Assembly (NCBI GenBank): GCA_964016885.1
Contig: OZ024759.1
Location: 35,836,001 to 35,900,000, forward strand
Source: Eledone cirrhosa
Lineage: Eukaryota
Reading direction: 5' to 3'
Length of the DNA stretch: 64,000 bases
Position numbers and translations under genes: made by a program. How positions within the stretch are numbered: the stretch's first letter is position 1; each line of letters begins with the position of its first letter. Positions 28,165 through 58,863 of the stretch are shown here, piece by piece. The notes beneath the pieces are model-generated. The model ran no database searches, was not told where the DNA came from, and worked only from the letters and a program-made list of their open reading frames with translations.

Positions 28165-28167
<3 letters not shown>

Positions 28168-28247
28168 GTAACACAACAGTTAGTTCACCATACCGAGAAC
28201 AATTGTTTCACCTTCTCGGTATGGTGAACTAAATGTTGTGTTACTAC
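28165..28247. repeat. Near-perfect hairpin (35-bp arms)
   Basis: GTAGTAACACAACAGTTAGTTCACCATACCGAGAA / TTCTCGGTATGGTGAACTAAATGTTGTGTTACTAC. Confidence 0.85.
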
Positions 28248-28868
28248 TTCTACCAAACACGTCCCATGGACTGAGTGCTCTACCACTATGGATATTACCT
28301 TCCAGTGTTCTACCTTTCTCTCTCTATTTATATATATATACAATGGCGGACTGGGCAGGTTGCCAGGTTGTCCCCAGGAGGCGCACGGTAGCATTACAAG
28401 AGCCGACAGTAGCATTGCAAGATCCCACAGTAACATTTTAGTATTTTAGGGGCCAATGCTTGGCTTTCAAAAAATACCTGAAATCTAAGAGAAATAATAA
28501 CATTTTTTAAAAAAAACAATAAAACAATTAAGCAAAGCATTTGGTCCACCAATTCCCCAGGGAATTACTAGAAACCAAAATATATGATAGTCCAAATAGC
28601 GGGAATCAGTGGTTGTACGTTCTACTAAATCTAAAGCTTAGTGTATTCATTCAAGTAAACATACATATATAGACACAGACACACAAGCATATATACATAT
28701 ATATATTTATATACTTACACACAAACTACTGACCAAATAATATTTGGTGTCAATGGGTTAAAGACATCTGAGACATCTAAGAAAGGCATGAACGACACCA
28801 CAACACTTTGTTTTGAAAATTATTGAAGTAGGTTTATAAGTATAAATTTTCCGAAGATTTTTGTAATA

Positions 28869-28949
28869 GTCTCTGTAGCCTAGCGGGAAGTACTGGAGAC
28901 GGTGAAAATCCTGGGCTTGGGTTCAATCCTGGTCAAAAGAAACCTTTTT
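28869..28949 (+). ncRNA. tRNA-like Pol III cassette A, copy 1
   Basis: A box TAGCCTAGCGG at +8, B box GGTTCAATCC at +52, TTTTT terminator; cloverleaf stems degenerate. Confidence 0.55.
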
Positions 28950-28980
28950 CAGTTTTTATTTTACCCATAGGAAAAAAATG

Positions 28981-29073
28981 AAAAGTTTTACCGGGAACCC
29001 AACTCCCGACTAGAATCGAACTCCGGACCAGGATCACCACCGTCTATGATTCCTCCCACTCGACCACCGAGAC
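28981..29073 (-). ncRNA. tRNA-like Pol III cassette B, copy 1
   Basis: Minus strand GTCTCGGTGGTCGAGTGG...GAGTTCGATTC...GGGAG then TTTT; resembles tRNA-Glu outside the anticodon arm. Confidence 0.55.
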
Positions 29074-29206
29074 ATCTATATAAGTATAATGAATTTTGAT
29101 TATTATAAACCTACTTTCAAAATCAAAGTTAAAAAGATGTGCTGTCGTTCATGGCTTTCCTAGAGCTATTAGTACTATTTAGGGTCGACTTCTGGTCATT
29201 ATTGAA

Positions 29207-29397
29207 CGGTGGATTGGCAGTATCGGTAGAGGGTCGGACGCCATGCTTTCCAGCATAGTTACGTCCCTTTATGATCTGAGTTCAAGTCCCGCCGAGGTTG
29301 ACTTTGCCTTTCATCCTTAGGGGGTCGATAAAATAAAGTACCAGTAATGCACTGGGTAATTGCTGGCCTTGTGCCTAAAGTAGAAACAATTATTGAA
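29207..29397 (+). mobile_element. Near full-length SINE insertion with TSD ATTATTGAA
   Basis: ATTATTGAA at 29198-29206 and 29389-29397; the other four array units show the empty site TCATTATTGAAAGTC. Confidence 0.9.
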
Positions 29398-30193
29398 AGT
29401 CTCTGGATTTCGCAAAAATCATATTTTTTATTGGAGAAGGTAAGATATTTCCGCAAAAATTTGATTGCACTGTTTTCTTTCCACTTATCTATTTTCCGAA
29501 AATGTTATTTATTCATTATAAAAATTAAATGATAGCATTCTATATGTAGGTGGGCCCCCTTCATCTCCTGGTAACCAATATTTTTAGACCGAGTCCGCCA
29601 CTTTCTCTCTCTCTAAATAAATATATATATATATATATATATATAGGAAAAGAGTCAGGACCCCGACGGCTGAGCTCCGGCCGTTTCGACACCTAGATTT
29701 CATTGTCCCACACCCTCCTCTAATTCAGAAACGTTTCCGCTGCCCTTGATATACGGCGTATCTTGGGTATTTTAGACAAGTTGGAGTTGGAGTTTATTAT
29801 CGGTTGAGGGTCGGACGCCATGCTTTGACGCATAGAGTTACGTCCCTTTATGGTCTGAGTTCAAATCCCGTCGAGGTTAATTTTGTCTTTCATCCTTACG
29901 GGGTCGATAAAATAAAGTACCAGTAATACACTGGGATAATTGCTGGCCTTGTGTCAAAAGTAGTAGAAATGAGGTGGAACAGAAATGAAACATGGATTAC
30001 AGGTTAAAATATAGTCTAGATAGATGTGAAACAAAACGAGGATGTAGTTTATGGAACACCCAAATGATTTAGAAGTCGACCTTAAGTAGGAGCAATAACA
30101 TCTAAGAAAGGCATGAATGACACCACAACACTTTGTTTTGAAAATTATTGAAGTAGGTTTATAGGTATGAATTTTCCAAGGATTTTTGTAGTG

Positions 30194-30274
30194 GTCTCTG
30201 TAGCCTAGCGGGAAGTACTAGAGACGGTGAAGATCCTGGTCTTGGGTTCAATCCTGGTCAAGAGTAACCTTTTT
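30194..30274 (+). ncRNA. tRNA-like Pol III cassette A, copy 2 (also starting 31325, 32448, 33570)
   Basis: A and B boxes at canonical tRNA spacing, T5 terminator, TATA at 30160-30163; copy 5 has a ~10-nt internal deletion. Confidence 0.55.
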
Positions 30275-30306
30275 CAGTTTTTATTTTACCCATAGAAAAA
30301 AAAATG

Positions 30307-30391
30307 AAAAGGGAACCCAACTCCCGACTAGAATCGAACTTCAGGACAGGAGCACCACCGTCTATGATTCCTCCCACTCGGCCACCGAGAC
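30307..30391 (-). ncRNA. tRNA-like Pol III cassette B, copy 2 (also starting 31522, 32645, 33758)
   Basis: A box TGGCCGAGTGG, B box AGTTCGATTC, T4 then a longer T run, TATA at 30422-30425. Confidence 0.55.
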
Positions 30392-30745
30392 ATCTATATA
30401 AGTATAATGAATTTTGATAATTATAAACCTACTTTCAAAATCAAAGTTAAAAAGATGTGCTGTCGTTCATGGCTTTCCTAGAGCTATTAGTACTATTTAG
30501 GGTCGACTTCTGGTCATTATTGAAAGTCTCTGGATTTCGCAAAAATCATATTTTTTATTGGAGAAGGTAAGATATATTTCCGCAAAAATTTGATTGCACT
30601 ATTTTCTTTCCACTTATGTATTTTTTGAAAATGTTATTTATTCATTATAAAAATTAAATGATAGTATTCTATATGTAGGTGGGCCCCCTTCATCTCCTGG
30701 TAACCAATATTTTTAGACCGAGTCCGCCACTTTCTCTCTCTCTAA

Positions 30746-30776
<31 letters not shown>

Positions 30777-33700
30777 GGAAAAGAGTCAGGACCCCGACGG
30801 CTGAGCTCCGGCCGTTTCGACACCTAGATTTCATTGTCCCACACCCTCCTCTAATTCAGAAACGTTTCCGCTGCCCTTGATATACGGCGTATCTTGGGTA
30901 TTTTAGACAAGTTGGAGTTGGAGTTTATTATCGGTTGAGGGTCGGACGCCATGCTTTGACGCATAGAGTTACGTCCCTTTATGGTCTGAGTTCAAATCCC
31001 GTCGAGGTTAATTTTGTCTTTCATCCTTACGGGGTCGATAAAATAAAGTACCAGTAATACACTGGGATAATTGCTGGCCTTGTGTCAAAAGTAGTAGAAA
31101 TGAGGTGGAACAGAAATGAAACATGGATTACAGGTTAAAATATAGTCTAGATAGATGTGAAACAAAACGAGGATGTAGTTTATGGAACACCCAAATGATT
31201 TAGAAGTCGACCTTAAGTAGGAGCAATAACATCTAAGAAAGGCATGAATGACACCACAACACTTTGTTTTGAAAATTATTGAAGTAGGTTTATAGGTATG
31301 AATTTTCCAAGGATTTTTGTAGTGGTCTCTGTAGCCTAGCGGGAAGTACTAGAGACGGTGAAGATCCTGGTCTTGGGTTCAATCCTGGTCAAGAGTAACC
31401 TTTTTCAGTTTTTATTTTACCCATAGAAAAAAAAATGAAAAGGGAACCCAACTCCCGACTAGAATCGAACTTCAGGACAGGAGCACCACCGTCTATGATT
31501 CCTCCCACTCGGCCACCGAGACATCTATATAAGTATAATGAATTTTGATAATTATAAACCTACTTTCAAAATCAAAGTTAAAAAGATGTGCTGTCGTTCA
31601 TGGCTTTCCTAGAGCTATTAGTACTATTTAGGGTCGACTTCTGGTCATTATTGAAAGTCTCTGGATTTCGCAAAAATCATATTTTTTATTGGAGAAGGTA
31701 AGATATATTTCCGCAAAAATTTGATTGCACTATTTTCTTTCCACTTATGTATTTTTTGAAAATGTTATTTATTCATTATAAAAATTAAATGATAGTATTC
31801 TATATGTAGGTGGGCCCCCTTCATCTCCTGGTAACCAATATTTTTAGACCGAGTCCGCCACTTTCTCTCTCTCTAAATAAATATATATATATATATATAG
31901 GAAAAGAGTCAGGACCCCGACGGCTGAGCTCCGGCCGTTTCGACACCTAGATTTCATTGTCCCACACCCTCCTCTAATTCAGAAACGTTTCCGCTGCCCT
32001 TGATATACGGCGTATCTTGGGTATTTTAGACAAGTTGGAGTTGGAGTTTATTATCGGTTGAGGGTCGGACGCCATGCTTTGACGCATAGAGTTACGTCCC
32101 TTTATGGTCTGAGTTCAAATCCCGTCGAGGTTAATTTTGTCTTTCATCCTTACGGGGTCGATAAAATAAAGTACCAGTAATACACTGGAATAATTGTTGG
32201 CCTTGTGTCAAAAGTAGTAGAAATGAGGTGGAACAGAAATGAAACATGGATTACAGGTTAAAATATAGTCTAAATAGATGTGAAACAAAACGAGGATGTA
32301 GTTTATGGAAGACCCAAATGATTTAGAAGTCGACCTTAAGTAGGAGCAATAACATCTAAGAAAGGCATGAATGACACCACAACACTTTGTTTTGAAAATT
32401 ATTGAAGTAGGTTTATAGGTATGAATTTTCCAAAGATTTTTGTAGTGGTCTCTGTAGCCTAGCGGGAAGTACTAGAGACGGTGAAGAACCTGGTCTTGGG
32501 TTCAATCCTGGTCAAGAGTAACCTTTTTCAGTTTTTATTTTACCCATAGAAAAAAAAATGAAAAGGGAACCCAACTCCCGACTAGAATCGAACTTCGGAC
32601 CAGGAGCACCACCGTCTATGATTCCTCCCACTCGGCCACCGAGACATCTATATAAGTATAATGAATTTTGATAATTATAAACCTACTTTCAAAATCAAAG
32701 TTAAAAAGATGTGCTGTCGTTCATGGCTTTCCTAGAGCTATTAGTACTATTTAGGGTCGACTTCTGGTCATTATTGAAAGTCTCTGGATTTCGCAAAAAT
32801 CATATTTTTTATTGGAGAAGGTAAGATATATTTCCGCAAAAATTTGATTGCACTATTTTCTTTCCACTTATGTATTTTTTGAAAATGTTATTTATTCATT
32901 ATAAAAATTAAATGATAGTATTCTATATGTAGGTGGGCCCCCTTCATCTCCTGGTAACCAATATTTTTAGACCGAGTCCGCCACTTTCTCTCTCTCTAAA
33001 TAAATATATATATATATATATAGGAAAAGAGTCAGGACCCCGACGGCTGAGCTCCGGCCGTTTCGACACCTAGATTTCATTGTCCCACACCCTCCTCTAA
33101 TTCAGAAACGTTTCCGCTGCCCTTGATATACGGCGTATCTTGGGTATTTTAGACAAGTTGGAGTTGGAGTTTATTATCGGTTGAGGGTCGGACGCCATGC
33201 TTTGACGCATAGAGTTACGTCCCTTTATGGTCTGAGTTCAAATCCCGTCGAGGTTAATTTTGTCTTTCATCCTTACGGGGTCGATAAAATAAAGTACCAG
33301 TAATACACTGGAATAATTGTTGGCCTTGTGTCAAAAGTAGTAGAAATGAGGTGGAACAGAAATGAAACATGGATTACAGGTTAAAATATAGTCTAGATAG
33401 ATGTGAAACAAAACGAGGATGTAGTTTATGGAAGACCCAAATGATTTAGAAGTCGACCTTAAGTAGGAGCAATAACATTAAGAAAGGCATGAACGACACC
33501 ACAACACTTTGTTTTGAAAATTATTGAAGTAGGTTTATAGGTATGAATTTTCCAAAGATTTTTGTAGTGGTCTCTGTAGCCTAGCGGGAAGTACTGGAGA
33601 CGGTGTACTGGGTTCAATCCTGGTCAAGAGTAACTTTTTTTCAGTTTTTATTTTACCCATAGAAAAAAAAATGAAAAGGGAACCCAACTCCCGACTAGAA

Positions 33701-34112
33701 TCGAACTCCGGACCAGGATCACCACCGTCTATGATTCCTCCCACTCGGCCACCGAGACATCTACAATAGTATAATGAATTTTGATAATTATAAACCTACT
33801 TTCAAAATCAAAGTTAAAAAGATGTGCTGTCGTTCATGGCTTTCCTAGAGCTATTAGTACTATTTAGGGTCGACTTCTGGTCATTATTGAAAGTCTCTGG
33901 ATTTCGCAAAAATCATATTTTTTATTGGAGAAGGTAAGATATATTTCCGCAAAAATTTGATTGCACTGTTTTCTTTCCACTTATGTATTTTTTGAAAATG
34001 TTATTTATTCATTATAAAAATTAAATGATAGTATTCTATATGTAGGTGGGCCCCCTTCATCTCCTGGTAACCAATATTTTTAGACCGAGTCCGCCACTTT
34101 CTCTCTCTCTAA

Positions 34113-34151
<39 letters not shown>

Positions 34152-34490
34152 AAAAGAGTCAGGACCCCGACGGCTGAGCTCCGGCCGTTTCGACACCTAG
34201 ATTTCATTGTCCCACACCCTCCTCTAATTCAGAAACGTTTCCGCTGCCCTTGATATACGGCGTATCTTGGGTATTTTAGACAAGTTGGAGTTGGAGTTTA
34301 TTATCGGTAGAGGGTCGGACGCCATGCTTTGACGCATAGAGTTACGTCCCTTTATGGTCTGAGTTCAAATCCCGTCGAGGCTAACTTTGCCTTTCATCCT
34401 TACGGGGTCGATAAAATCAAGTACCAGTAATACACTGGGATAATTGCTGGCCTTGTGCCAAAAGTAGAAACAATTATATTTATTGACAAA

Positions 34491-34602: not shown

Positions 34603-35773
34603 CCTGCCTTTTGTTGTATGTGGTCCTAGATGTGTGTATTACCTGCTTGTGTGTTGTATGTGGTCCTAGATGTGTGTATTACCTGCTGGTGTGTTATATG
34701 TGGTCCTAGATGTGTGTATTACCTGCTTGTGTGTTGTATGTGGTCCTAGATGTGTGTATTACCTGCTTGTGTGTTGTATGTGGTCCTAGATGTGTGTATT
34801 ACCTGCTGGTGTGATATATGTGGTCCTAGATGTGTGTATTACCTGCTTGTGTGTTGTATGTGGTCATATATGTGTGTATTACCTGCTGGTGTGTTGTATG
34901 TGGTCATAGATGTGTGTATTACCTGCTTGTGTGTTGTATGTGGTCCTACTTGTGTGTATTACCTGCTGGTGTGTTATATGTGGTCCTAGATGTGTGTATT
35001 ACCTGCTGGTGTGTTGTATGTGGTCCTATATGTGTGTATTACCTGCTGGTGTGTTATATGTGGTCCTAGATGTGTGTATTACCTGCTGGTGTGTTATATG
35101 TGGTCCTATATGTGTGTATTACCTGCTGGTGTGTTATATGTGGTCCTAGATGTGTGTATTACCTGCTGGTGTGTTATATGTGGTCCTAGATGTGTGTATT
35201 ACCTGCTTGTGTGTTATATGTGGTCCTAGATATGTGTATTACCTGCTGGTGTGTTATATGTGGTCCTAGATGTGTGTATTACCTGCTGGTGTGTTATATG
35301 TGGTCATATATGTGTGTATTACCTGCTGGTGTGTTGTATGTGGTCCTAGATGTGTGTATTACCTGCTGGTGTGTTGTATGTGGTCCTAGATGTGTGTATT
35401 ACCTGCTTGTGTGTTGTATGTGGTCATAGATGTGTGTATTACCTGCTGGTGTGTTATATGTGGTCATATATGTGTGTATTACCTGCTTGTGTGTTGTATG
35501 TGGTCCTAGATGTGTGTATTACCTGCTGGTGTGTTATATGTGGTCCTAGATGTGTGTATTACCTGCTGGTGTGTTGTATGTGGTCCTAGATGTGTGTATT
35601 ACCTGCTGGTGTGTTATATGTGGTCATATATGTGTGTATTACCTGCTTGTGTGTTGTATGTGGTCCTAGATGTGTGTATTACCTGCTGGTGTGTTATATG
35701 TGGTCATATATGTGTGTATTACCTGCTTGTGTGTTGTATGTGGTCCTAGATGTGTGTATTACCTGCTGGTGTG
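34602..35773. repeat. 40-bp minisatellite (~29 copies)
   Basis: TGTGTGTATTACCTGCT[G/T]GTGTGTT[A/G]TATGTGGTC[C/A]TA[G/T]A. Confidence 0.97.
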
Positions 35774-36366
35774 TTTTTCTTTTCTTTCTTTTTCCTTTCC
35801 CTTTTTCTTTGTAATATTATGTTGACGGTTGTCTAAATAAAATCATTTAACGAAGTTTATTTATTTATTCAATGTTAACGTCCGTATAGAGCTGGTAAGC
35901 TATGACAAAGTGGGGGAAGTATCGAGTACTCCTTACACTTACAGTTGGTAATCAAAAAGAGATAATAAGACAAGTAATAAAAATAAAATAAAAAGTTTTT
36001 AAAAAAACTCAAAAACAATTGTAATAAATCATTTGTAAATTTTGTTGAGTTACGTCCAATTATAGCAGCGAGGTCAACTTTGACTTTCATTAAAGATGAA
36101 ATAAAACACGATTTAAGTAAATAGTTTTCATTTAATCCCTACATCAAAGTGGTGTAGCTTCATGCTAATGTTATGGACGGGCGGATTTTTACATAAGTCT
36201 AGATAGATTTCTGAGAATATGTCGCTTATTAGCATTAAGGAAAGATTAGAATAACGTCTTTGACATACGTAGGTACTGTTGTGGGGGGGGGGGGGGGTTT
36301 AACTGACCTCCTGCGAGGTTGCATCTTACAGGAGGTTTCTAAGGTGTTTTAATGTTGCGGGTCCAC

Positions 36367-36498
36367 AGTGAAGGCTTAGTGGTTAGAGCATTGGGCTTGC
36401 AATCAAAAGGTTGTGAGTTCAATTCTCGTACCGGGTGATGTGGTGTTTCCTTGAGCAAGACACTTTATTTCACGATGCTCCAGTTTACTCAGCTGTAA
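36367..36498 (+). mobile_element. CORE-like tRNA SINE, 3'-truncated
   Basis: GGCTTAGTGGTTAGAGC...GAGTTCAATTC...CCTTGAGCAAGACACTT...CTCAGCTGTAA. Confidence 0.75.
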
Positions 36499-36900: not shown

Positions 36901-37083
36901 AACAAAGAAGGTATGGTAAGAAACCAGGTGGACGATAACGTACCAGAGTACTCAATACTTAGGGTTGTAGAGTGGGTAGGAAAAGAGTCAGGACCCCGAC
37001 GGCTGAGCTCCTGCCGTACGACAGCTAGTTCTAGCTGTCGAAACAGTCGGAGATCAGCCGTCGGGGTCCTGACTCTTTTCCCA
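36901..37083. mobile_element. Hairpin-plus-tail element
   Basis: Hairpin 36979-37081; TA flanks. Confidence 0.85.
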
Positions 37084-44912: not shown

Positions 44913-46931
44913 ACACCTGTCTACACCTGTGTAGCCCTGTCCACAGCTGTGTAGCCCTGTCCACAGCTGTCTACACCTGTGTAGCCCTGTCCACACCTGT
45001 CTACACCTGTGTAGCCCTGTCCACAGCTGTCTACACCTGTGTAGCCCTGTCCACACCTGTCTACACCTGTGTAGCCCTGTCCACACCTGTCTACACCTGT
45101 GTAGCCCTGTCCACACCTGTCTACACCTGTGTAGCCCTGTCCACAGCTGTCTACACCTGTGTAGCCCTGTCCACACCTGTCCACACCTGTGTAGCCCTGT
45201 CCACAGCTGTCTACACCTGTGTAGCCCTGTCCACACCTGTGTAGCCCTGTCCACAGCTGTCTACACCTGTGTAGCCCTGTCCACACCTGTCTACACCTGT
45301 GTAGCCCTGTCCACAGCTGTCTACACCTGTGTAGCCCTGTCCACACCTGTGTAGCCCTGTCCACAGCTGTCTACACCTGTGTAGCCCTGTCCACACCTGT
45401 CTACACCTGTGTAGCCCTGTCCACAGCTGTCTACACCTGTGTAGCCCTGTCCACACCTGTGTAGCCCTGTCCACAGCTGTCTACACCTGTGTAGCCCTGT
45501 CCACACCTGTCTACACCTGTGTAGCCCTGTCCACAGCTGTCTACACCTGTGTAGCCCTGTCCACACCTGTGTAGCCCTGTCCACAGCTGTCTACACCTGT
45601 GTAGCCCTGTCCACACCTGTCTACACCTGTGTAGCCCTGTCCACAGCTGTCTACACCTGTGTAGCCCTGTCCACACCTGTGTAGCCCTGTCCACAGCTGT
45701 CTACACCTGTGTAGCCCTGTCCACACCTGTCTACACCTGTGTAGCCCTGTCCACAGCTGTCTACACCTGTGTAGCCCTGTCCACACCTGTCTACACCTGT
45801 GTAGCCCTGTCCACACCTGTCCACACCTGTGTAGCCCTGTCCACAGCTGTGTACACCTGTGTAGCCCTGTCCACAGCTGTCTACACCTGTGTAGCCCTGT
45901 CCACACCTGTCTACACCTGTGTAGCCCTGTCCACACCTGTCTACACCTGTGTAGCCCTGTCCACACCTGTCTACACCTGTGTAGCCCTGTCCACAGCTGT
46001 CTACACCTGTGTAGCCCTGTCCACAGCTGTGTACACCTGTGTAGCCCTGTCCACAGCTGTCTACACCTGTGTAGCCCTGTCCACAGCTGTCTACACCTGT
46101 GTAGCCCTGTCCACACCTGTCTACACCTGTGTAGCCCTGTCCACAGCTGTCTACACCTGTGTAGCCCTGTCCACAGCTGTCTACACCTGTGTAGCCCTGT
46201 CCACAGCTGTGTACACCTGTGTAGCCCTGTCCACAGCTGTCTACACCTGTGTAGCCCTGTCCACAGCTGTGTACACCTGTGTAGCCCTGTCCACACCTGT
46301 CTACACCTGTGTAGCCCTGTCCACACCTGTCTACACCTGTGTAGCCCTGTCCACAGCTGTCTACACCTGTGTAGCCCTGTCCACAGCTGTCTACACCTGT
46401 GTAACCCTGTCCACAGCTGTGTACACCTGTGTAGCCCTGTCCACAGCTGTCTACACCTATGTAGCCCTGTCCACAGCTGTCTACACCTGTGTAGCCCTGT
46501 CCACACCTGTCTACACCTGTGTAGCCCTGTCCACAGCTGTCTACACCTGTGTAGCCCTGTCCACACCTGTCTACACCTGTGTAGCCCTGTCCACAGCTGT
46601 CTACACCTGTGTAGCCCTGTCCACACCTGTCTACACCTATGTAGCCCTGTCCACACCTGTCTACACCTGTGTAGCCCTGTCCACACCTGTCTACACCTGT
46701 GTAGCCCTGTCCACAGCTGTCTACACCTATGTAGCCCTGTCCACACCTGTCTACACCTGTGTAGCCCTGTCCACAGCTGTGTACACCTGTGTAGCCCTGT
46801 CCACAGCTGTGTACACCTGTGTAGCCCTGTCCACAGCTGTGTAGCCCTGTCCACAGCTGTCTACACCTGTGTAGCCCTGTCCACAGCTGTGTACACCTGT
46901 GTAGCCCTGTCCACAGCTGTGTACACCTGTA
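44913..46931. repeat. 30-bp minisatellite of three 10-bp subunits, with a 110-bp higher-order block
   Basis: CCACA[C/G]CTGT CTACACCTGT GTAGCCCTGT; one subunit dropped every 110 bp in ~45180-45700. Confidence 0.97.
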
Positions 46932-47942: not shown

Positions 47943-50900
47943 GACAGAGACCAGCAGCCAGTGGTCAACAGAGAGACAATCTATAAGGTGGGTGACAGGC
48001 AGATGATATATAATGTCTCAGAGGACAGAGACCAGCAGCCAGTGGTCAACAGAGAGACAATCTATAAGGTGGGTGACAGGTAGATGATATATAATGTCTC
48101 AGAGGACAGAGACCAGCAGCCAGTGGTCAACAGAGAGACAATCTATAAGGTGGGTGACAGGCAGATGATATATAATGTCTCAGAGGACAGAGACCAGCAG
48201 CCAGTGGTCAACAGAGAGACAATCTATAAGGTGGGTGACAGACAGATGATATATAATGTCTCAGAGGACAGAGACCAGCAGCCAGTGGTCAACAGAGAGA
48301 CAATCTATAAGGTGGGTGACAGGTAGATGATATATAATGTCTCAGAAGACAGAGACCAGCAGCCAGTGGTCAACAGAGAGACAATCTATAAGGTGGGTGA
48401 CAGGTAGATGATATATAATGTCTCAGAGGACAGAGACCAGTGGCCAGTGGTCAACAGAGAGACAATCTATAAGGTGGGTGACAGGTAGATGATATATAAT
48501 GTCTCAGAGGACAGAGACCAGTGGCCAGTGGTCAACAGAGAGACAATCCACAAGGTGGGTGACAGGCAGATGATATATAATGTCTCAGAGGACAGAGACC
48601 AGCAGCCAGTGGTCAACAGAGAGACAATCTATAAGGTGGGTGACAGGTAGATGATATATAATGTCTCAGAAGACAGAGACCAGCAGCCAGTGGTCAACAG
48701 AGAGACAATCTATAAGGTGGGTGACAGGTAGATGATATATAATGTCTCAGAGGACAGAGACCAGTGGCCAGTGGTCAACAGAGAGACAATCTATAAGGTG
48801 GGTGACAGGTAGATGATATATAATGTCTCAGAAGACAGAGACCAGCAGCCAGTGGTCAACAGAGAGACAATCTATAAGGTGGGTGACAGGTAGATGATAT
48901 ATAATGTCTCAGAGGACAGAGACCAGTGGCCAGTGGTCAACAGAGAGACAATCTATAAGGTGGGTGACAGGTAGATGATATATAATGTCTCAGAGGACAG
49001 AGACCAGTGGCCAGTGGTCAACAGAGAGACAATCTATAAGGTGGGTGACAGGTAGATGATATATAATGTCTCAGAGGACAGAGACCAGCAGCCAGTGGTC
49101 AACAGAGAGACAATCTATAAGGTGGGTGACAGGTAGATGATATATAATGTCTCAGAGGACAGAGACCAGCAGCCAGTGGTCAACAGAGAGACAATCTATA
49201 AGGTGGGTGACAGGTAGATGATATATAATGTCTCAGAGGACAGAGACCAGTGGCCAGTGGTCAACAGAGAGACAATCTATAAGGTGGGTGACAGGTAGAT
49301 GATATATAATGTCTCAGAGGACAGAGACCAGTGGCCAGTGGTCAACAGAGAGACAATCTATAAGGTGGGTGACAGACAGATGATATATAATGTCTCAGAA
49401 GACAGAGACCAGCAGCCAGTGGTCAACAGAGAGACAATCCACAAGGTGGGTGACAGGTAGATGATATATAATGTCTCAGAGGACAGTGACCAGTGGTCAG
49501 TGGTCAACAGAGAGACAATCCACAAGGTGGGTGACAGGTAGATGATATATAATGTCTCAGAGGACAGAGACCAGCAGCCAGTGGTCAACAGAGAGACAAT
49601 CTATAAGGTGGGTGACAGGTAGATGATATATAATGTCTCAGAGGACAGAGACCAGTGGCCAGTGGTCAACAGAGAGACAATCTATAAGGTGGGTGACAGG
49701 TAGATGATATATAATGTCTCAGAGGACAGTGACCAGTGGTCAGTGGTCAACAGAGAGACAATCCACAAGGTGGGTGACAGGTAGATGATATATAATGTCT
49801 CAGAGGACAGAGACCAGCAGCCAGTGGTCAACAGAGAGACAATCTATAAGGTGGGTGACAGGTAGATGATATATAATGTCTCAGAGGACAGAGACCAGCA
49901 GCCAGTGGTCAACAGAGAGACAATCCACAAGGTGGGTGACAGACAGATGATATATAATGTCTCAGAAGACAGAGACCAGTGACCAGTGGTCAACAGAGAG
50001 ACAATCCACAAGGTGGGTGACAGGCAGATGATATATAATGTCTCAGAGGACAGAGACCAGCAGCCAGTGGTCAACAGAGAGACAATCCACAAGGTGGGTG
50101 ACAGACAGATGATATATAATGTCTCAGAGGACAGAGACCAGCAGCCAGTGGTCAACAGAGAGACAATCCACAAGGTAGGTGACAGACAGATGATATATAA
50201 TGTCTCAGAGGACAGAGACCAGCAGCCAGTGGTCAACAGAGAGACAATCCACAAGGTGGGTGACAGACAGATGATATATAATGTCTCAGAGGACAGAGAC
50301 CAGCAGCCAGTGGTCAACAGAGAGACAATCCACAAGGTGGGTGACAGACAGATGATATATAATGTCTCAGAGGACAGAGACCAGCAGCCAGTGGTCAACA
50401 GAGAGACAATCCACAAGGTAGGTGACAGACAGATGATATATAATGTCTCAGAGGACAGAGACCAGCAGCCAGTGGTCAACAGAGAGACAATCTATAAGGT
50501 GGGTGACAGACAGATGAAATATAATGTCTCAGAGGACAGAGACCAGCAGCCAGTGGTCAACAGAGAGACAATCTATAAGGTGGGTGACAGGCAGATGATA
50601 TATAATGTCTCAGAGGACAGAGACCAGCAGCCAGTGGTCAACAGAGAGACAATCCACAAGGTGGGTGACAGACAGATGATATATAATGTCTCAGAGGACA
50701 GAGACCAGCAGCCAGTGGTCAACAGAGAGACAATCCACAAGGTGGGTGACAGACAGATGATATATAATGTCTCAGAGGACAGAGACCAGCAGCCAGTGGT
50801 CAACAGAGAGACAATCCACAAGGTAGGTGACAGACAGATGATATATAATGTCTCAGAGGACAGAGACCAGCAGCCAGTGGTCAACAGAGAGACAATCTAT

Positions 50901-53900
50901 AAGGTGGGTGACAGACAGATGAAATATAATGTCTCAGAGGACAGAGACCAGCAGCCAGTGGTCAACAGAGAGACAATCTATAAGGTGGGTGACAGGCAGA
51001 TGATATATAATGTCTCAGAGGACAGAGACCAGCAGCCAGTGGTCAACAGAGAGACAATCTATAAGGTGGGTGACAGACAGATGATATATAATGTCTCAGA
51101 GGACAGTGGCCAGCAGCCAGTGGTCAACAGAGAGACAATCTATAAGGTGGGTGACAGGCAGATGATATATAATGTCTCAGAGGACAGTGGCCAGCAGCCA
51201 GTGGTCAACAGAGAGACAATCTATAAGGTGGGTGACAGACAGATGATATATAATGTCTCAGAGGACAGTGGCCAGCAGCCAGTGGTCAACAGAGAGACAA
51301 TCTATAAGGTGGGTGACAGGCAGATGATATATAATGTCTCAGAGGACAGAGACCAGCAGCCAGTGGTCAACAGAGAGACAATCTATAAGGTGGGTGACAG
51401 ACAGATGATATATAATGTCTCAGAGGACAGAGACCAGCAGCCAGTGGTCAACAGAGAGACAATCTATAAGGTGGGTGACAGACAGATGATATATAATGTC
51501 TCAGAGGACAGAGACCAGCAGCCAGTGGTCAACAGAGAGACAATCTATAAGGTGGGTGACAGACAGATGATATATAATGTCTCAGAGGACAGAGACCAGT
51601 GGCCAGTGGTCAACAGAGAGACAATCTATAAGGTGGGTGACAGACAGATGATATATAATGTCTCAGAGGACAGAGACCAGCAGCCAGTGGTCAACAGAGA
51701 GACAATCCACAAGGTGGGTGACAGGTAGATGATATATAATGTCACAGAGGACAGAGACCAGTGACCAGTGGTCAACAGAGAGACAATCTATAAGGTGGGT
51801 GACAGACAGATGATATATAATGTCACAGAGGACAGAGACCAGTGACCAGTGGTCAACAGAGAGACAGTCTATAAGGTGGGTGACAGACAGATGATATATA
51901 ATGTCACAGAGGACAGAGACCAGTGACCAGTGGTCAGCAGAGAGACAATCTATAAGGTGGGTGACAGACAGATGATATATAATGTCTCAGAGGACAGAGA
52001 CCAGCAGCCAGTGGTCAACAGAGAGACAATCTATAAGGTGGGTGACAGACAGATGATATATAATGTCTCAGAGGACAGAGACCAGTGGCCAGTGGTCAAC
52101 AGAGAGACAATCTATAAGGTGGGTGACAGACAGATGATATATAATGTCTCAGAGGACAGAGACCAGCAGCCAGTGGTCAACAGAGAGACAATCTATAAGG
52201 TGGGTGACAGACAGATGATATATAATGTCTCAGAGGACAGAGACCAGCAGCCAGTGGTCAACAGAGAGACAATCTATAAGGTGGGTGACAGGCAGATGAT
52301 ATATAATGTCTCAGAGGACAGAGACCAGTGGCCAGTGGTCAACAGAGAGACAATCTATAAGGTGGGTGACAGACAGATGATATATAATGTCTCAGAGGAC
52401 AGAGACCAGCAGCCAGTGGTCAACAGAGAGACAATCCACAAGGTGGGTGACAGACAGATGATATATAATGTCTCAGAAGACAGAGACCAGCAGCCAGTGG
52501 TCAACAGAGAGACAATCCACAAGGTGGGTGACAGGTAGATGATATATAATGTCTCAGAGGACAGACCAGTGACCAGTGGTCAACAGAGAGACAATCCACA
52601 AGGTGGGTGACAGGTAGATGATATATAATGTCTCAGAGGACAGAGACCAGCGACCAGTGGTCAACAGAGAGACAATCCACAAGGTGGGTGACAGACAGAT
52701 GATATATAATGTCTCAGAGGACAGAGACCAGCAGCCAGTGGTCAACAGAGAGACAATCTATAAGGTGGGTGACAGACAGATGATATATAATGTCTCAGAG
52801 GACAGAGACCAGTGGCCAGTGGTCAACAGAGAGACAATCTATAAGGTGGGTGACAGACAGATGATATATAATGTCTCAGAGGACAGAGACCAGCAGCCAG
52901 TGGTCAACAGAGAGACAATCCACAAGGTGGGTGACAGACAGATGATATATAATGTCTCAGAGGACAGAGACCAGCAGCCAGTGGTCAACAGAGAGACAAT
53001 CTATAAGGTGGGTGACAGGTAGATGATATATAATGTCTCAGAAGACAGAGACCAGCAGCCAGTGGTCAACAGAGAGACAATCTATAAGGTGGGTGACAGA
53101 CAGATGATATATAATGTCTCAGAGGACAGAGACCAGCAGCCAGTGGTCAACAGAGAGACAATCTATAAGGTGGGTGACAGACAGATGATATATAATGTCT
53201 CAGAGGACAGAGACCAGCAGCCAGTGGTCAACAGAGAGACAATCTATAAGGTGGGTGACAGGCAGATGATATATAATGTCTCAGAGGACAGAGACCAGCA
53301 GCCAGTGGTCAACAGAGAGACAATCTATAAGGTGGGTGACAGACAGATGATATATAATGTCTCAGAGGACAGAGACCAGCAGCCAGTGGTCAACAGAGAG
53401 ACAATCCACAAGGTGGGTGACAGACAGATGATATATAATGTCTCAGAGGACAGAGACCAGCAGCCAGTGGTCAACAGAGAGACAATCCACAAGGTGGGTG
53501 ACAGACAGATGATATATAATGTCTCAGAGGACAGAGACCAGCAGCCAGTGGTCAACAGAGAGACAATCTATAAGGTGGGTGACAGACAGATGATATATAA
53601 TGTCTCAGAGGACAGAGACCAGCAGCCAGTGGTCAACAGAGAGACAATCTATAAGGTGGGTGACAGGCAGATGATATATAATGTCTCAGAGGACAGAGAC
53701 CAGCAGCCAGTGGTCAACAGAGAGACAATCTATAAGGTGGGTGACAGACAGATGATATATAATGTCTCAGAGGACAGAGACCAGCAGCCAGTGGTCAACA
53801 GAGAGACAATCTATAAGGTGGGTGACAGACAGATGATATATAATGTCTCAGAGGACAGAGACCAGCAGCCAGTGGTCAACAGAGAGACAATCTATAAGGT

Positions 53901-56900
53901 GGGTGACAGACAGATGATATATAATGTCTCAGAGGACAGAGACCAGCAGCCAGTGGTCAACAGAGAGACAATCTATAAGGTGGGTGACAGACAGATGATA
54001 TATAATGTCTCAGAGGACAGAGACCAGCAGCCAGTGGTCAACAGAGAGACAATCTATAAGGTGGGTGACAGGCAGATGATATATAATGTCTCAGAGGACA
54101 GAGACCAGCAGCCAGTGGTCAACAGAGAGACAATCTATAAGGTGGGTGACAGACAGATGATATATAATGTCTCAGAGGACAGAGACCAGCAGCCAGTGGT
54201 CAACAGAGAGACAATCTATAAGGTGGGTGACAGACAGATGATATATAATGTCTCAGAGGACAGAGACCAGCAGCCAGTGGTCAACAGAGAGACAATCTAT
54301 AAGGTGGGTGACAGACAGATGATATATAATGTCTCAGAGGACAGAGACCAGCAGCCAGTGGTCAACAGAGAGACAATCTATAAGGTGGGTGACAGGCAGA
54401 TGATATATAATGTCTCAGAGGACAGAGACCAGCAGCCAGTGGTCAACAGAGAGACAATCTATAAGGTGGGTGACAGACAGATGATATATAATGTCTCAGA
54501 GGACAGAGACCAGCAGCCAGTGGTCAACAGAGAGACAATCCACAAGGTGGGTGACAGACAGATGATATATAATGTCTCAGAAGACAGAGACCAGTGACCA
54601 GTGGTCAACAGAGAGACAATCCACAAGGTGGGTGACAGACAGATGATATATAATGTCTCAGAGGACAGAGACCAGCAGCCAGTGGTCAACAGAGAGACAA
54701 TCTATAAGGTGGGTGACAGGCAGATGATATATAATGTCTCAGAGGACAGAGACCAGCAGCCAGTGGTCAACAGAGAGACAATCTATAAGGTGGGTGACAG
54801 GTAGATGATATATAATGTCTCAGAGGACAGAGACCAGCAGCCAGTGGTCAACAGAGAGACAATCTATAAGGTGGGTGACAGACAGATGATATATAATGTC
54901 TCAGAGGACAGAGACCAGCAGCCAGTGGTCAACAGAGAGACAATCCACAAGGTGGGTGACAGACAGATGATATATAATGTCTCAGAGGACAGAGACCAGC
55001 AGCCAGTGGTCAACAGAGAGACAATCCACAAGGTGGGTGACAGACAGATGATATATAATGTCTCAGAGGACAGAGACCAGCAGCCAGTGGTCAACAGAGA
55101 GACAATCTATAAGGTGGGTGACAGGCAGATGATATATAATGTCTCAGAGGACAGAGACCAGCAGCCAGTGGTCAACAGAGAGACAATCTATAAGGTGGGT
55201 GACAGACAGATGATATATAATGTCTCAGAGGACAGAGACCAGCAGCCAGTGGTCAACAGAGAGACAATCTATAAGGTGGGTGACAGACAGATGATATATA
55301 ATGTCTCAGAGGACAGAGACCAGCAGCCAGTGGTCAACAGAGAGACAATCTATAAGGTGGGTGACAGACAGATGATATATAATGTCTCAGAGGACAGAGA
55401 CCAGCAGCCAGTGGTCAACAGAGAGACAATCTATAAGGTGGGTGACAGGCAGATGATATATAATGTCTCAGAGGACAGAGACCAGCAGCCAGTGGTCAAC
55501 AGAGAGACAATCTATAAGGTGGGTGACAGACAGATGATATATAATGTCTCAGAGGACAGAGACCAGCAGCCAGTGGTCAACAGAGAGACAATCCACAAGG
55601 TGGGTGACAGACAGATGATATATAATGTCTCAGAAGACAGAGACCAGTGACCAGTGGTCAACAGAGAGACAATCCACAAGGTGGGTGACAGACAGATGAT
55701 ATATAATGTCTCAGAGGACAGAGACCAGCAGCCAGTGGTCAACAGAGAGACAATCTATAAGGTGGGTGACAGGCAGATGATATATAATGTCTCAGAGGAC
55801 AGAGACCAGCAGCCAGTGGTCAACAGAGAGACAATCTATAAGGTGGGTGACAGACAGATGATATATAATGTCTCAGAGGACAGAGACCAGCAGCCAGTGG
55901 TCAACAGAGAGACAATCCACAAGGTGGGTGACAGACAGATGATATATAATGTCTCAGAGGACAGAGACCAGCAGCCAGTGGTCAACAGAGAGACAATCCA
56001 CAAGGTGGGTGACAGACAGATGATATATAATGTCTCAGAGGACAGAGACCAGCAGCCAGTGGTCAACAGAGAGACAATCTATAAGGTGGGTGACAGGCAG
56101 ATGATATATAATGTCTCAGAGGACAGAGACCAGCAGCCAGTGGTCAACAGAGAGACAATCTATAAGGTGGGTGACAGACAGATGATATATAATGTCTCAG
56201 AGGACAGAGACCAGCAGCCAGTGGTCAACAGAGAGACAATCCACAAGGTGGGTGACAGACAGATGATATATAATGTCTCAGAGGACAGAGACCAGCAGCC
56301 AGTGGTCAACAGAGAGACAATCCACAAGGTGGGTGACAGACAGATGATATATAATGTCTCAGAGGACAGAGACCAGCAGCCAGTGGTCAACAGAGAGACA
56401 ATCTATAAGGTGGGTGACAGGCAGATGATATATAATGTCTCAGAGGACAGAGACCAGCAGCCAGTGGTCAACAGAGAGACAATCTATAAGGTGGGTGACA
56501 GACAGATGATATATAATGTCTCAGAGGACAGAGACCAGCAGCCAGTGGTCAACAGAGAGACAATCTATAAGGTGGGTGACAGACAGATGATATATAATGT
56601 CTCAGAGGACAGAGACCAGCAGCCAGTGGTCAACAGAGAGACAATCTATAAGGTGGGTGACAGACAGATGATATATAATGTCTCAGAGGACAGAGACCAG
56701 CAGCCAGTGGTCAACAGAGAGACAATCCACAAGGTGGGTGACAGACAGATGATATATAATGTCTCAGAGGACAGAGACCAGCAGCCAGTGGTCAACAGAG
56801 AGACAATCCACAAGGTGGGTGACAGACAGATGATATATAATGTCTCAGAGGACAGAGACCAGCAGCCAGTGGTCAACAGAGAGACAATCCATGAGGTAGG

Positions 56901-58863
56901 TGACAGACAGATGATATATAATGTCTCAGAGGACAGAGACCAGCAGCCAGTGGTCAACAGAGAGACAATCTATAAGGTGGGTGACAGGCAGATGATATAT
57001 AATGTCTCAGAGGACAGAGACCAGCAGCCAGTGGTCAACAGAGAGACAATCTATAAGGTGGGTGACAGACAGATGATATATAATGTCTCAGAGGACAGAG
57101 ACCAGCAGCCAGTGGTCAACAGAGAGACAATCTATAAGGTGGGTGACAGGCAGATGATATATAATGTCTCAGAGGACAGAGACCAGCAGCCAGTGGTCAA
57201 CAGAGAGACAATCTATAAGGTGGGTGACAGGCAGATGATATATAATGTCTCAGAGGACAGAGACCAGCAGCCAGTGGTCAACAGAGAGACAATCTATAAG
57301 GTGGGTGACAGACAGATGATATATAATGTCTCAGAGGACAGAGACCAGCAGCCAGTGGTCAACAGAGAGACAATCTATAAGGTGGGTGACAGGCAGATGA
57401 TATATAATGTCTCAGAGGACAGAGACCAGCAGCCAGTGGTCAACAGAGAGACAATCTATAAGGTGGGTGACAGGCAGATGATATATAATGTCTCAGAGGA
57501 CAGAGACCAGCAGCCAGTGGTCAACAGAGAGACAATCTATAAGGTGGGTGACAGGCAGATGATATATAATGTCTCAGAGGACAGAGACCAGCAGCCAGTG
57601 GTCAACAGAGAGACAATCTATAAGGTGGGTGACAGACAGATGATATATAATGTCTCAGAGGACAGAGACCAGCAGCCAGTGGTCAACAGAGAGACAATCT
57701 ATAAGGTGGGTGACAGGCAGATGATATATAATGTCTCAGAGGACAGAGACCAGCAGCCAGTGGTCAACAGAGAGACAATCTATAAGGTGGGTGACAGGCA
57801 GATGATATATAATGTCTCAGAGGACAGAGACCAGCAGCCAGTGGTCAACAGAGAGACAATCTATAAGGTGGGTGACAGACAGATGATATATAATGTCTCA
57901 GAGGACAGAGACCAGCAGCCAGTGGTCAACAGAGAGACAATCCACAAGGTGGGTGACAGACAGATGATATATAATGTCTCAGAGGACAGAGACCAGCAGC
58001 CAGTGGTCAACAGAGAGACAATCCACAAGGTGGGTGACAGGTAGATGATATATAATGTCTCAGAGGACAGAGACCAGCAGCCAGTGGTCAACAGAGAGAC
58101 AATCTATAAGGTGGGTGACAGGCAGATGATATATAATGTCTCAGAGGACAGAGACCAGCAGCCAGTGGTCAACAGAGAGACAATCTATAAGGTGGGTGAC
58201 AGACAGATGAAATATAATGTCTCAGAGGACAGAGACCAGCAGCCAGTGGTCAACAGAGAGACAATCTATAAGGTGGGTGACAGGCAGATGATATATAATG
58301 TCTCAGAGGACAGAGACCAGCAGCCAGTGGTCAACAGAGAGACAATCTATAAGGTGGGTGACAGACAGATGATATATAATGTCTCAGAGGACAGAGACCA
58401 GCAGCCAGTGGTCAACAGAGAGACAATCCACAAGGTGGGTGACAGGTAGATGATATATAATGTCTCAGAGGACAGAGACCAGCAGCCAGTGGTCAACAGA
58501 GAGACAATCTATAAGGTGGGTGACAGGCAGATGATATATAATGTCTCAGAGGACAGAGACCAGCAGCCAGTGGTCAACAGAGAGACAATCTATAAGGTGG
58601 GTGACAGACAGATGAAATATAATGTCTCAGAGGACAGAGACCAGCAGCCAGTGGTCAACAGAGAGACAATCTATAAGGTGGGTGACAGGCAGATGATATA
58701 TAATGTCTCAGAGGACAGAGACCAGCAGCCAGTGGTCAACAGAGAGACAATCTATAAGGTGGGTGACAGGCAGATGATATATAATGTCTCAGAGGACAGA
58801 GACCAGCAGCCAGTGGTCAACAGAGAGACAATCCACAAGGTGGGTGACAGGCAGATGATATAT
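47943..58863. repeat. 81-bp satellite, ~135 copies (10.9 kb)
   Basis: GACAGAGACCAGCAGCCAGTGGTCAACAGAGAGACAATC[TAT/CAC]AAGGTGGGTGACAG[AC/GC/GT]AGATGATATATAATGTCTCAGAG. Confidence 0.98.

What the first reader, a model, noticed from the sequence alone, without database searches (positions are those of the whole stretch)
30063..30518. Fold-back unit carrying two convergent tRNA-like Pol III cassettes with conserved upstream promoter geometry
Seen: cassette A (+, GTCTCTGTAGCCTAGCGGGAAGTACT[A/G]GAGACGGTGAAGATCCTGGTCTTGGGTTCAATCCTGGTCAAGAGT) and cassette B (-, GTCTCGGTGGCCGAGTGGGAGGAATCATAGACGGTGGTG[A/C]TCCTGGTCCG[G/A]AGTTCGATTCTAGTCGGGAGT) are diverged paralogues. Both keep A and B boxes at tRNA positions 8 and ~52, and each has its own oligo-T terminator in the central spacer. 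Upstream, both have AAGTAGGTTTATA, with TATA followed by exactly 30 nt of largely dissimilar spacer before the first G. Further shared blocks (GAAAG.CATGAA.GACA.CACA; AGAAGTCGACC.TAA.TAG) extend to about -130. The cloverleaf stems pair poorly, while 5'/3' end pairing and a central GAC...GTC stem are possible. Established: internal A/B boxes plus upstream TATA and elements is the layout of vault RNA and EBER-type genes; SINEs do not carry upstream flanks. Inference: this is either a pair of uncharacterised ~80-90-nt Pol III RNAs or a TIR element that carries inward-firing Pol III promoters.
Basis: partly seen in the sequence, partly recalled or inferred. Interest (0 to 1): 0.8.

Follow-up and report, generated by a model that had tools for sequence, protein, structure and literature searches.

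The report
Transposon carrying twin tRNA-like promoter cassettes
This is a worn copy of an abundant animal repeat, likely a cut-and-paste jumping element, whose core holds two face-to-face segments that keep the promoter signals of tRNA genes but not the tRNA shape, and which would be read by RNA polymerase III if those signals still work.

Summary
The anatomy is real. All 10 cassettes in the window have A and B boxes, an upstream TTTATA at -36 and a T-run, 9 of them at exact tRNA spacing; 100 shuffles gave no such layout. But the 456-mer is not a stand-alone gene pair. It lies in a 1.13-kb tandem array and belongs to a high-copy family: 4,990 contigs of one public run lie on it. The family has a fixed right end with variable AT-rich flanks in four organisms, and a matching 15-bp inverted end upstream, as in a non-autonomous DNA transposon. 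The fold-back arms are internal, not the termini. The claimed box- and spacing-specific conservation is not supported: window copies are decayed, and 22 of 27 family-majority letters make the arms more alike, including the 'dissimilar' spacer (15/30 to 22/30). No cloverleaf, no Rfam tRNA or Vault hit, no significant fold. Best reading: a hAT-like MITE that captured a tRNA-like Pol III unit with its flanks and duplicated it head-on. Transcription, target-site duplication and the transposase are untested. The closest concept in print is TRIMp3 (LTR elements); a DNA-transposon equivalent was not found in six searches.

The parts
30063..30266 (+). Arm A of the internal fold-back: about 130 nt upstream flank plus cassette A
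   Evidence: aligns with arm B at 137/197
30319..30518 (-). Arm B of the internal fold-back: upstream flank plus cassette B
   Evidence: one contig of run X4 covers 30311-30524 with 15 other letters and no gaps
30194..30274 (+). Cassette A: tRNA-length unit; A box 30201-30211, B box 30246-30254, T-run from 30270
30158..30163 (+). TTTATA at -36 of cassette A
30307..30391 (-). Cassette B: tRNA-length unit; A box 30384-30374, B box 30339-30331, T-run from 30310
30422..30427 (-). TTTATA at -36 of cassette B
30267..30318 (.). Central spacer with both T-run terminators facing each other
   Evidence: sequence
30519..30731 (+). Right sub-terminal part of the element; its last 115-150 bp are shared with repeat families of three other organisms
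   Evidence: tables 2, 7, 8
30717..30731 (-). Right terminal inverted repeat (this copy lacks the last base seen in the family)
   Evidence: table 7: loose ends behind 30731 in 73, 15, 17 and 69 contigs of X1, X4, X5, X7, agreement 0.42-0.51
29971..30062 (+). Left interior of the family, cut off on the left by a SINE in the array copies
   Evidence: table 2 (X1 depth 23,000-62,000 over 29965-30094) and table 8 records 1-2
28341..28355 (+). Left terminal inverted repeat candidate, preceded by (TA)n
   Evidence: the only further match within 2 mismatches that lies near the array; not checked across family copies
28341..29602 (+). First, apparently complete element copy (1,262 bp): left end, cassettes at 28869 (+) and 29073 (-), inserted SINE, right end
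   Evidence: longest open frame 81 codons
29207..29388 (+). SINE inserted later into arm B's flank, with a 9-bp target duplication
29389..34467 (+). Local tandem array, period 1123-1131, each unit = element body + right end + (CT)n(TA)n + unrelated palindromic-repeat fragment + SINE
   Evidence: cassette regions 95-100% identical to each other
31325..31522 (.). Third A/B cassette pair
32448..32645 (.). Fourth A/B cassette pair
33570..33758 (.). Fifth A/B cassette pair; A has a 10-nt internal deletion

Best explanation
The 456-mer is the internal fold-back core of a high-copy repeat that is likely a non-coding cut-and-paste DNA transposon (MITE-like, probably hAT-type), and each arm keeps tRNA-type A and B promoter boxes, an upstream TATA and a T-run but no tRNA cloverleaf, so it would recruit TFIIIC and could give two 80-85-nt polymerase III RNAs. 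Shown: boxes, spacing, TATA and T-runs; high copy number; a fixed right end with variable flanks; a matching inverted end in the window; no coding frame; loss of the cloverleaf; decay and local tandem amplification of the window copies. Inferred: (1) an ancestral element captured a tRNA-like Pol III gene at the DNA level, which explains why the upstream flank and a sense-strand T-rich trailer came along; (2) the unit was duplicated head-on long before the last amplification (family arms about 79% alike); (3) a transposase acting in trans on the short termini spread it; (4) the boxes outlasted the stems because promoter binding, not the RNA, was kept. The likeliest benefit is TFIIIC-bound open or insulated chromatin, with T-runs limiting read-through into a hairpin RNA.
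For: Layout beyond chance, 10 sites against 0 in 100 shuffles. Run X1: 4,990 contigs laid, 734/1385/1813/1058 at 99+/95-99/90-95/under 90% alike, summed depth 400 to 104,000 per bin where single long contigs have depth 3.5-13.8 (depth is not a copy number, so only 'order of a thousand or more' is claimed). Loose ends begin behind 30731 in all four runs with low agreement (0.42-0.51), i.e. one fixed end and many flanks. Left end at 28341 matches the right end in inverse, on a (TA)n flank. hAT elements have 10-25-bp TIRs and MITE derivatives that keep only the ends (PMC3942097, passages); run X7 holds mainly the last 115-150 bp, with different interiors. Cloverleaf pairs at chance level: 50% of cells, 0 compensatory pairs, slid controls 32-54%; with majority letters 6 and 5 Watson-Crick pairs of 21. 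Box letters are kept in both arms in the family majority (9/11 and 8/9 identical). Read-through from A to B folds as a strong hairpin (-78.8 kcal/mol, z -8.4).
Against: No target-site duplication flanks the complete window copy, and the flanks in the four runs do not settle TA versus 8 bp. The left end was not checked across family copies, and 28341-28770 has no second copy in the window. No transposase was found. Boxes are not significantly more conserved between arms than the rest (23/26 vs 132/171, Fisher p=0.15; longest run 21, P=0.20), so current selection on the promoters is not shown. Neither cassette scores against the Rfam tRNA model even at E<=10, so tRNA ancestry rests on box letters and spacing alone. 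TATA (P about 0.16) and T4 (P about 0.10) arise easily in these 69% AT flanks. Table 3 showed 40 of 101 differing places, so the majority for arm A may be incomplete.
Confidence: 0.62

Rival explanations
1. The cassette is the head of an old SINE that inserted into the transposon and was duplicated in inverse; boxes were selected in the SINE phase and are now passengers.
For: Boxes kept while stems are lost is the usual SINE-head pattern (established knowledge). SINE insertion is the origin proposed for Pol III promoters in Cassandra, Helenus and Ajax (PMC10886601, Discussion). No box-specific conservation between arms. SINEs do insert into this element.
Against: The sense-strand tail is T-rich and follows within 5-10 nt of position 72, with no body and no A-rich tail. 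A TATA lies at a tRNA-gene-like distance. No free cassette in 64 kb (nhmmer, 10 hits plus one at E 0.99). No similarity of the cassettes to the window's own SINE family at E<=1e-3.
Confidence: 0.15
2. The cassettes are, or descend from, a host vault-like small RNA gene: a panhandle RNA of about 80 nt that the transposon captured, or a true gene pair.
For: Internal A/B boxes plus external TATA are described for vault genes, and locally multicopy clusters occur (PMC10491885, passages). A hand-drawn panhandle (2-8/64-70, 22-32/46-56) pairs in 86% of cells with one G.U/U.G swap between arms, and its central 5 pairs are intact in both arms with majority letters.
Against: That structure was chosen after seeing the sequences and has 1 two-sided change in 16 pairs. 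RNAalifold picks another structure at only -7 kcal/mol. MFE z-scores are -0.1 to -0.35, and 5'/3' duplexes are no better than shuffles (P 0.12-0.58). No Vault match. The family is of repeat-scale abundance. The terminal stem does not abut the T-run.
Confidence: 0.1
3. The fold-back is itself an older long-TIR (foldback/Mutator-like) element nested in the short-TIR element, its arms carrying inward-firing promoters.
For: Arm similarity stops sharply near 30063/30518 and does not extend to the flanking interiors (local alignment scores 22 and 28, within shuffles).
Against: No target duplication is visible around 30063/30518 (sequence). No loose-end cluster at either boundary is among the 24 shown of 622.
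Confidence: 0.08
4. A two-armed RNA-derived insertion made by a Penelope-type reverse transcriptase into (TA)n, as earlier notes report for other hairpin repeats of this genome.
For: (TA)n flanks on the left end and in X1's loose ends. The Pol III layout would supply an RNA.
Against: No hammerhead core motif on either strand of 28331-30780. The arms are old (about 79% alike) and internal. The end is fixed to the base in four organisms and matches a short inverted left end.
Confidence: 0.05

Closest known systems
TRIMp3 elements: Helenus, Ajax, Cassandra (Kojima 2024, PMC10886601; abstract, Discussion and passages read)
   Same: [quoted passage not shown]
   Different: TRIMp3 are LTR retroelements with direct repeats, a primer-binding site and a polypurine tract, and they need their transcript to move. 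Here the two units are inverted and convergent, each closed by a T-run, inside short inverted termini, and a cut-and-paste element needs no transcript.
hAT-derived MITEs such as the BuT2 MITEs (PMC3942097, passages)
   Same: Short TIRs, no coding capacity, AT-rich interior, about 1 kb, high copy number, ends shared among related families.
   Different: The 8-bp target duplication is not shown here; the interior carries a fold-back pair of tRNA-like Pol III units.
tRNA-derived SINEs (definitions in SINEBase, PMC3531059, passages)
   Same: tRNA-length head with A and B boxes and a decayed cloverleaf; high copy number.
   Different: No body or A-rich tail, always paired in inverse within the window, shares 125 nt of upstream flank between units, and the repeat ends in an inverted terminus.
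Vault RNA genes (PMC10491885, passages)
   Same: Internal A/B boxes with upstream TATA, length near 80-90 nt, a possible panhandle.
   Different: No Rfam match, no significant fold, repeat-scale copy number, embedded in a mobile element.
C. elegans Tc4 fold-back transposon with tRNA pseudogenes in its arms (recalled, no call confirms it; searches did not retrieve this point)
   Same: If recalled rightly: a DNA transposon whose inverted arms each hold a tRNA-derived segment.
   Different: Tc4's arms are its termini and nearly identical; here they are internal and about 79% alike.

Membership tests
MITE / non-autonomous TIR DNA transposon | No coding capacity | tested here: met
   longest stop-free stretch 81 codons in 28341-29602 and 84 in 29965-30731
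MITE / non-autonomous TIR DNA transposon | High copy number, dispersed | tested here: met
   4,990 contigs of X1 laid; 73 contigs leave at 30731 into flanks of agreement 0.51
MITE / non-autonomous TIR DNA transposon | Terminal inverted repeats at both ends | tested here: inconclusive
   right end fixed in four runs; inverse match at 28341 in one window copy; left end not checked across copies
MITE / non-autonomous TIR DNA transposon | Target-site duplication | tested here: inconclusive
   none around the window copy, whose right end lacks its last base and abuts a microsatellite
hAT superfamily | 8-bp target duplication | tested here: inconclusive
   flanks AT-rich, starting TA in X1 but not in X4, X5, X7 consensus; paired flanks unavailable
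hAT superfamily | Short TIR of 10-25 bp | tested here: met
   about 15 bp; range from PMC3942097; fit to the hAT terminal consensus is recalled
hAT superfamily | hAT transposase in an autonomous partner | not testable with these tools
   no assembly of the host was available
tRNA gene | A and B boxes at tRNA spacing | tested here: met
   9 of 10 cassettes at 45 nt
tRNA gene | Cloverleaf with paired stems; U33 | tested here: not met
   50% of cells paired, as in slid controls; position 33 is G; ARAGORN 0; no Rfam tRNA hit
Vault RNA | Internal A/B boxes plus upstream elements and T terminator | tested here: met
   not diagnostic
Vault RNA | Conserved panhandle / Rfam Vault match | tested here: not met
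   no hit at E<=10; z about 0; 1 two-sided change in 16 hand-picked pairs
Vault RNA | Association with MVP/TEP1 | not testable with these tools
   needs pull-down
tRNA-derived SINE | Head-body-tail with A-rich or repeat tail, dispersed singly with own target duplication | tested here: not met
   T-run directly after the head; 10 of 10 window cassettes paired in inverse; genome-wide single copies not testable
TRIMp3 (Helenus) | Two direct LTRs with PBS and PPT | tested here: not met
   the two units are inverted
Penelope-mobilised retrozyme | Hammerhead core | tested here: not met
   no CTGANGA on either strand of 28331-30780

The most novel reading that the evidence does not exclude
DNA transposons with paired, inward-facing, terminator-closed Pol III units form a recurrent, unnamed class, the cut-and-paste counterpart of TRIMp3. 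The units are active and kept because bound TFIIIC shields the element from silencing or keeps its ends accessible, or because the 80-85-nt RNAs act as decoys; thousands of copies would then scatter TFIIIC/Pol III sites through the genome. An unchecked note on an arthropod element with the same layout (e1-7500488) hints at independent origins.
Probability: 0.22. Interest if true: 0.7.

Novelty: new variant of a known kind. Interest (0 to 1): 0.42.

Why it matters
A cut-and-paste element does not need a transcript to move, so Pol III promoters with terminators inside one have no accepted purpose. If they are maintained, they point to a new use of TFIIIC by transposons (insulation or anti-silencing) and to a large mobile source of Pol III sites and tRNA-like annotation noise in this animal genome. 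If they are passengers, this is one more uncurated MITE with unusual cargo. The practical lesson holds either way: conservation read from two arms of one decayed copy was misleading.

Tried and rejected
ARAGORN on the window: 0 genes. Rfam at gathering score: one hit, a tRNA-like stretch at 36373-36429, not a cassette. Rfam at E<=10 on 28500-31200: 15 hits, all far below gathering; the best (MIR2670, 42.5 of 117 bits) reflects the fold-back itself. Single cassettes: one irrelevant bacterial sRNA hit and none. Two exact-pattern scans of metagenome contigs (TATA-to-cassette pattern; right-end pattern): 0 loci each. Cassette B against phage genomes: one 18-nt hit at E 7, meaningless. Run search: 17 runs listed, 14 holding part of the stretch, 9 studies, no RNA holder listed, which says nothing on expression; 4 of the 17 were laid, and the small shares of the other ten holders are not used. 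Box-, TATA- and spacer-specific conservation: rejected as unsupported. Similarity of left and right interiors beyond the termini: none above shuffles. Hammerhead core: absent. The tRNA isotype was not determined, as no eukaryotic tRNA set was available; positions 34-36 read GTG but there is no anticodon stem. Literature searches for a DNA transposon with tRNA-like Pol III units and for mollusc vault RNAs gave no description of this element; I saw listings and abstract starts only, apart from the papers named. PMC7175516 (passages) was irrelevant. Repbase and Dfam could not be searched, so a catalogue entry may exist. Earlier notes by sequence and by place: nothing.

Full report
Observation. 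Cassette A begins at 30194 (+) and cassette B at 30391 (-), converging on a T/A-rich spacer. The window has five of each. In 10 of 10, TTTATA starts at -36; in 9 of 10 the A box (position 8) and B box (position 53) are 45 nt apart, the spacing of a tRNA gene, the tenth having a 10-nt deletion. A generic A+B scan finds these 10 sites in 64 kb and none in 100 block-shuffled windows (the pattern was written after I had seen the sequence). The arms align at 137 of 197 positions.

The unit is one period of a tandem array, 29389-34467, period 1123, 4.5 copies, 98% matches. Each period holds the fold-back, 210 bp to its right, a (CT)n(TA)n run, a fragment of an unrelated palindromic repeat and a SINE that recurs across the window. 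Upstream of the array lies a fifth cassette pair inside a 1,262-bp stretch, 28341-29602, that starts on (TA)n with a 15-bp sequence matching the right end in inverse. A SINE with a 9-bp target duplication interrupts it at 29207-29388. From recall only, the SINE and the microsatellite load look cephalopod; no call names the host.

The unit is a high-copy repeat. A run search listed 17 runs, 14 holding part of 30063-30700, one with more than half of the words. Four were laid on 29965-30735 at 80% likeness. Run X1 gave 4,990 contigs, 734/1385/1813/1058 in the 99+/95-99/90-95/under-90% classes, covering 30 of 30 bins at summed depths of 400 to 104,000, while single long contigs have depths of 3.5-13.8. 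The tool warns that depth is no copy number, so I claim only an order of a thousand or more. Loose ends begin behind 30731 in 73, 15, 17 and 69 contigs of X1, X4, X5 and X7, all starting with the same base and then agreeing only 0.42-0.51: a fixed end with many AT-rich flanks. X4 and X5 cover the cassettes thinly (depth about 10-100) and the last 150 bp deeply; X7 covers 10 of 30 bins, mainly the last 120 bp, and continues inward into other sequence. Related families in other organisms thus share the ends but not always the interior, as MITE families do (PMC3942097, passages). One X4 contig covers 30311-30524 with 15 differences, and table 3 lists 15 places there where X4 shows the X1 majority letter; whether this is a relative's copy or carried-over DNA I cannot tell. 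X1 may be the window's own source and is not independent of it.

The conservation argument fails. Between the window's arms, upstream flank and gene diverge alike (87/125 and 50/72). The 13-nt TATA block has a permutation P of 0.31 and the low-identity spacer 0.50. Table 3 showed 40 of 101 differing places; 27 lie in the arms, each with an X1 majority of 78-100%. Of these 27, 22 make the arms more alike, 3 less and 2 neither. Arm identity rises to 155/197 and the spacer from 15/30 to 22/30. Boxes plus TATA against the rest give 23/26 vs 132/171, Fisher p=0.15; the longest run, 21, has P=0.20. At 9 of the 12 cassette positions checked, every window copy examined carries the same minority letter (four A copies, five B copies), so they are one decayed local lineage. 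With two arms the test has little power; it does not show that the boxes are neutral.

What the cassettes are. They keep the box letters of tRNA but not its fold: 50% of cloverleaf cells pair, against 32-54% in slid controls, with no compensatory pair; with majority letters 6 and 5 of 21 pairs are Watson-Crick; position 33 is G. ARAGORN and Rfam see nothing. A vault-like panhandle can be drawn (86% of cells, one G.U/U.G swap, 11 of 500 shuffles as high), but I chose it by eye, seven related rows stand for two lineages, RNAalifold prefers another weak structure, MFE z-scores are near 0 and end-to-end duplexes are no better than shuffles. An upstream TATA is described for vault genes (PMC10491885, passages) but also for a subset of silkworm and Drosophila tRNA genes (PMC11346459, passage), so it does not separate the two. 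SINEBase warns that A and B boxes indicate but do not prove a SINE (PMC3531059, passage). Stems at chance level beside intact boxes at exact spacing suggest, by inference, that the promoter and not the RNA was kept for a long time; this is open to ascertainment bias, since the unit was noticed for its boxes.

Mechanism. Most likely (0.62) a non-autonomous TIR element, probably hAT-type, captured a tRNA-like Pol III gene with its flanks, duplicated it head-on, and was spread by a transposase in trans. The window copy then decayed, took up a SINE and was amplified in tandem, plausibly by unequal exchange between SINE copies, since the array starts just after one SINE and ends at the end of another. 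The T-runs would stop each transcript at 80-85 nt; read-through from A into B would give a strong hairpin (z -8.4), a possible silencing trigger. The benefit to the element, if any, is likeliest TFIIIC-bound open or insulated chromatin; tRNA genes lie in nucleosome-poor regions and have insulator activity, though their role in genome organisation has been challenged (PMC11346459, passages). Against this reading: no target duplication around the complete copy, a left end seen in one copy only, no transposase, no RNA data. Rivals are a SINE head turned passenger (0.15), a vault-like gene (0.10), a nested fold-back element (0.08) and a Penelope-made two-armed insertion (0.05; no hammerhead core).

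Comparison and novelty. The nearest described concept is TRIMp3, LTR elements with tRNA- or 5S-derived promoters that are thought to serve the element rather than the cell (PMC10886601, abstract and Discussion); the word search of that paper found no mention of DNA transposons, MITEs or inverted units. Six searches returned no paper describing a DNA transposon with an inverted pair of such units. The library lacks most subscription papers, and Repbase and Dfam were not searchable. I recall tRNA pseudogenes in the arms of C. elegans Tc4 but could not confirm it. An unchecked note of this scan describes the same layout in an arthropod fold-back element (e1-7500488); it is a lead, not support. 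No supplements were read. Verdict: a new variant of a known kind, interest 0.42; an active, recurrent class of Pol III-bearing DNA transposons has probability about 0.22 and would merit 0.7.

Noticed in passing
window 29207-29388, 29798-29963, 30929-31094 and about 20 further pieces across the window: An abundant SINE family with a tRNA-like head; one copy sits inside the first element with a 9-bp target duplication, and SINE copies bound the tandem array.
   Followed up: partly
window 14957-15113, 22889-22990, 36979-37081; half copies at 29646, 30777, 31900, 33023, 34150: A short palindromic repeat family on (TA)n flanks; the array units carry one arm plus other sequence. Possibly one of the Penelope-related hairpin ends noted elsewhere in this genome.
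   Followed up: no
window 22431-22596: A second short element with a similar inverted terminus, several GGCCC motifs and near-duplicated flanks of about 8 bp; looks like another hAT-type MITE.
   Followed up: no
window 36373-36429: Partial Rfam tRNA match (34.6 bits, model 9-63), followed by further sequence; likely the head of another SINE.
   Followed up: no
window 28165-28247: 35-bp inverted repeat, 97% complementary, 13-nt loop, just upstream of the element.
   Followed up: no
window 28310-28340 and 29599-29631: The flanks on both sides of the complete element are similar (CT)n-then-(TA)n runs (73% over 33 nt); a long decayed duplication or chance.
   Followed up: partly
window 47943-58864, 44937-46930, 19452-20989, 34612-35775: Large minisatellite arrays: 81 bp x 135, 30 bp x 68, 59 bp x 26, 40 bp x 29.
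   Followed up: no
window 30408-30477, runs X1 and X4: Two contigs in each run hold the TATA-bearing upstream block between the same non-matching flanks, the downstream one beginning like a diverged cassette: an old copy apparently shared by both organisms (table 7).
   Followed up: no
window 30700 to 29995, run X1: One contig joins the right sub-terminal region back to the left interior through 34 other letters, suggesting other tandem or rearranged copies (table 5c).
   Followed up: no
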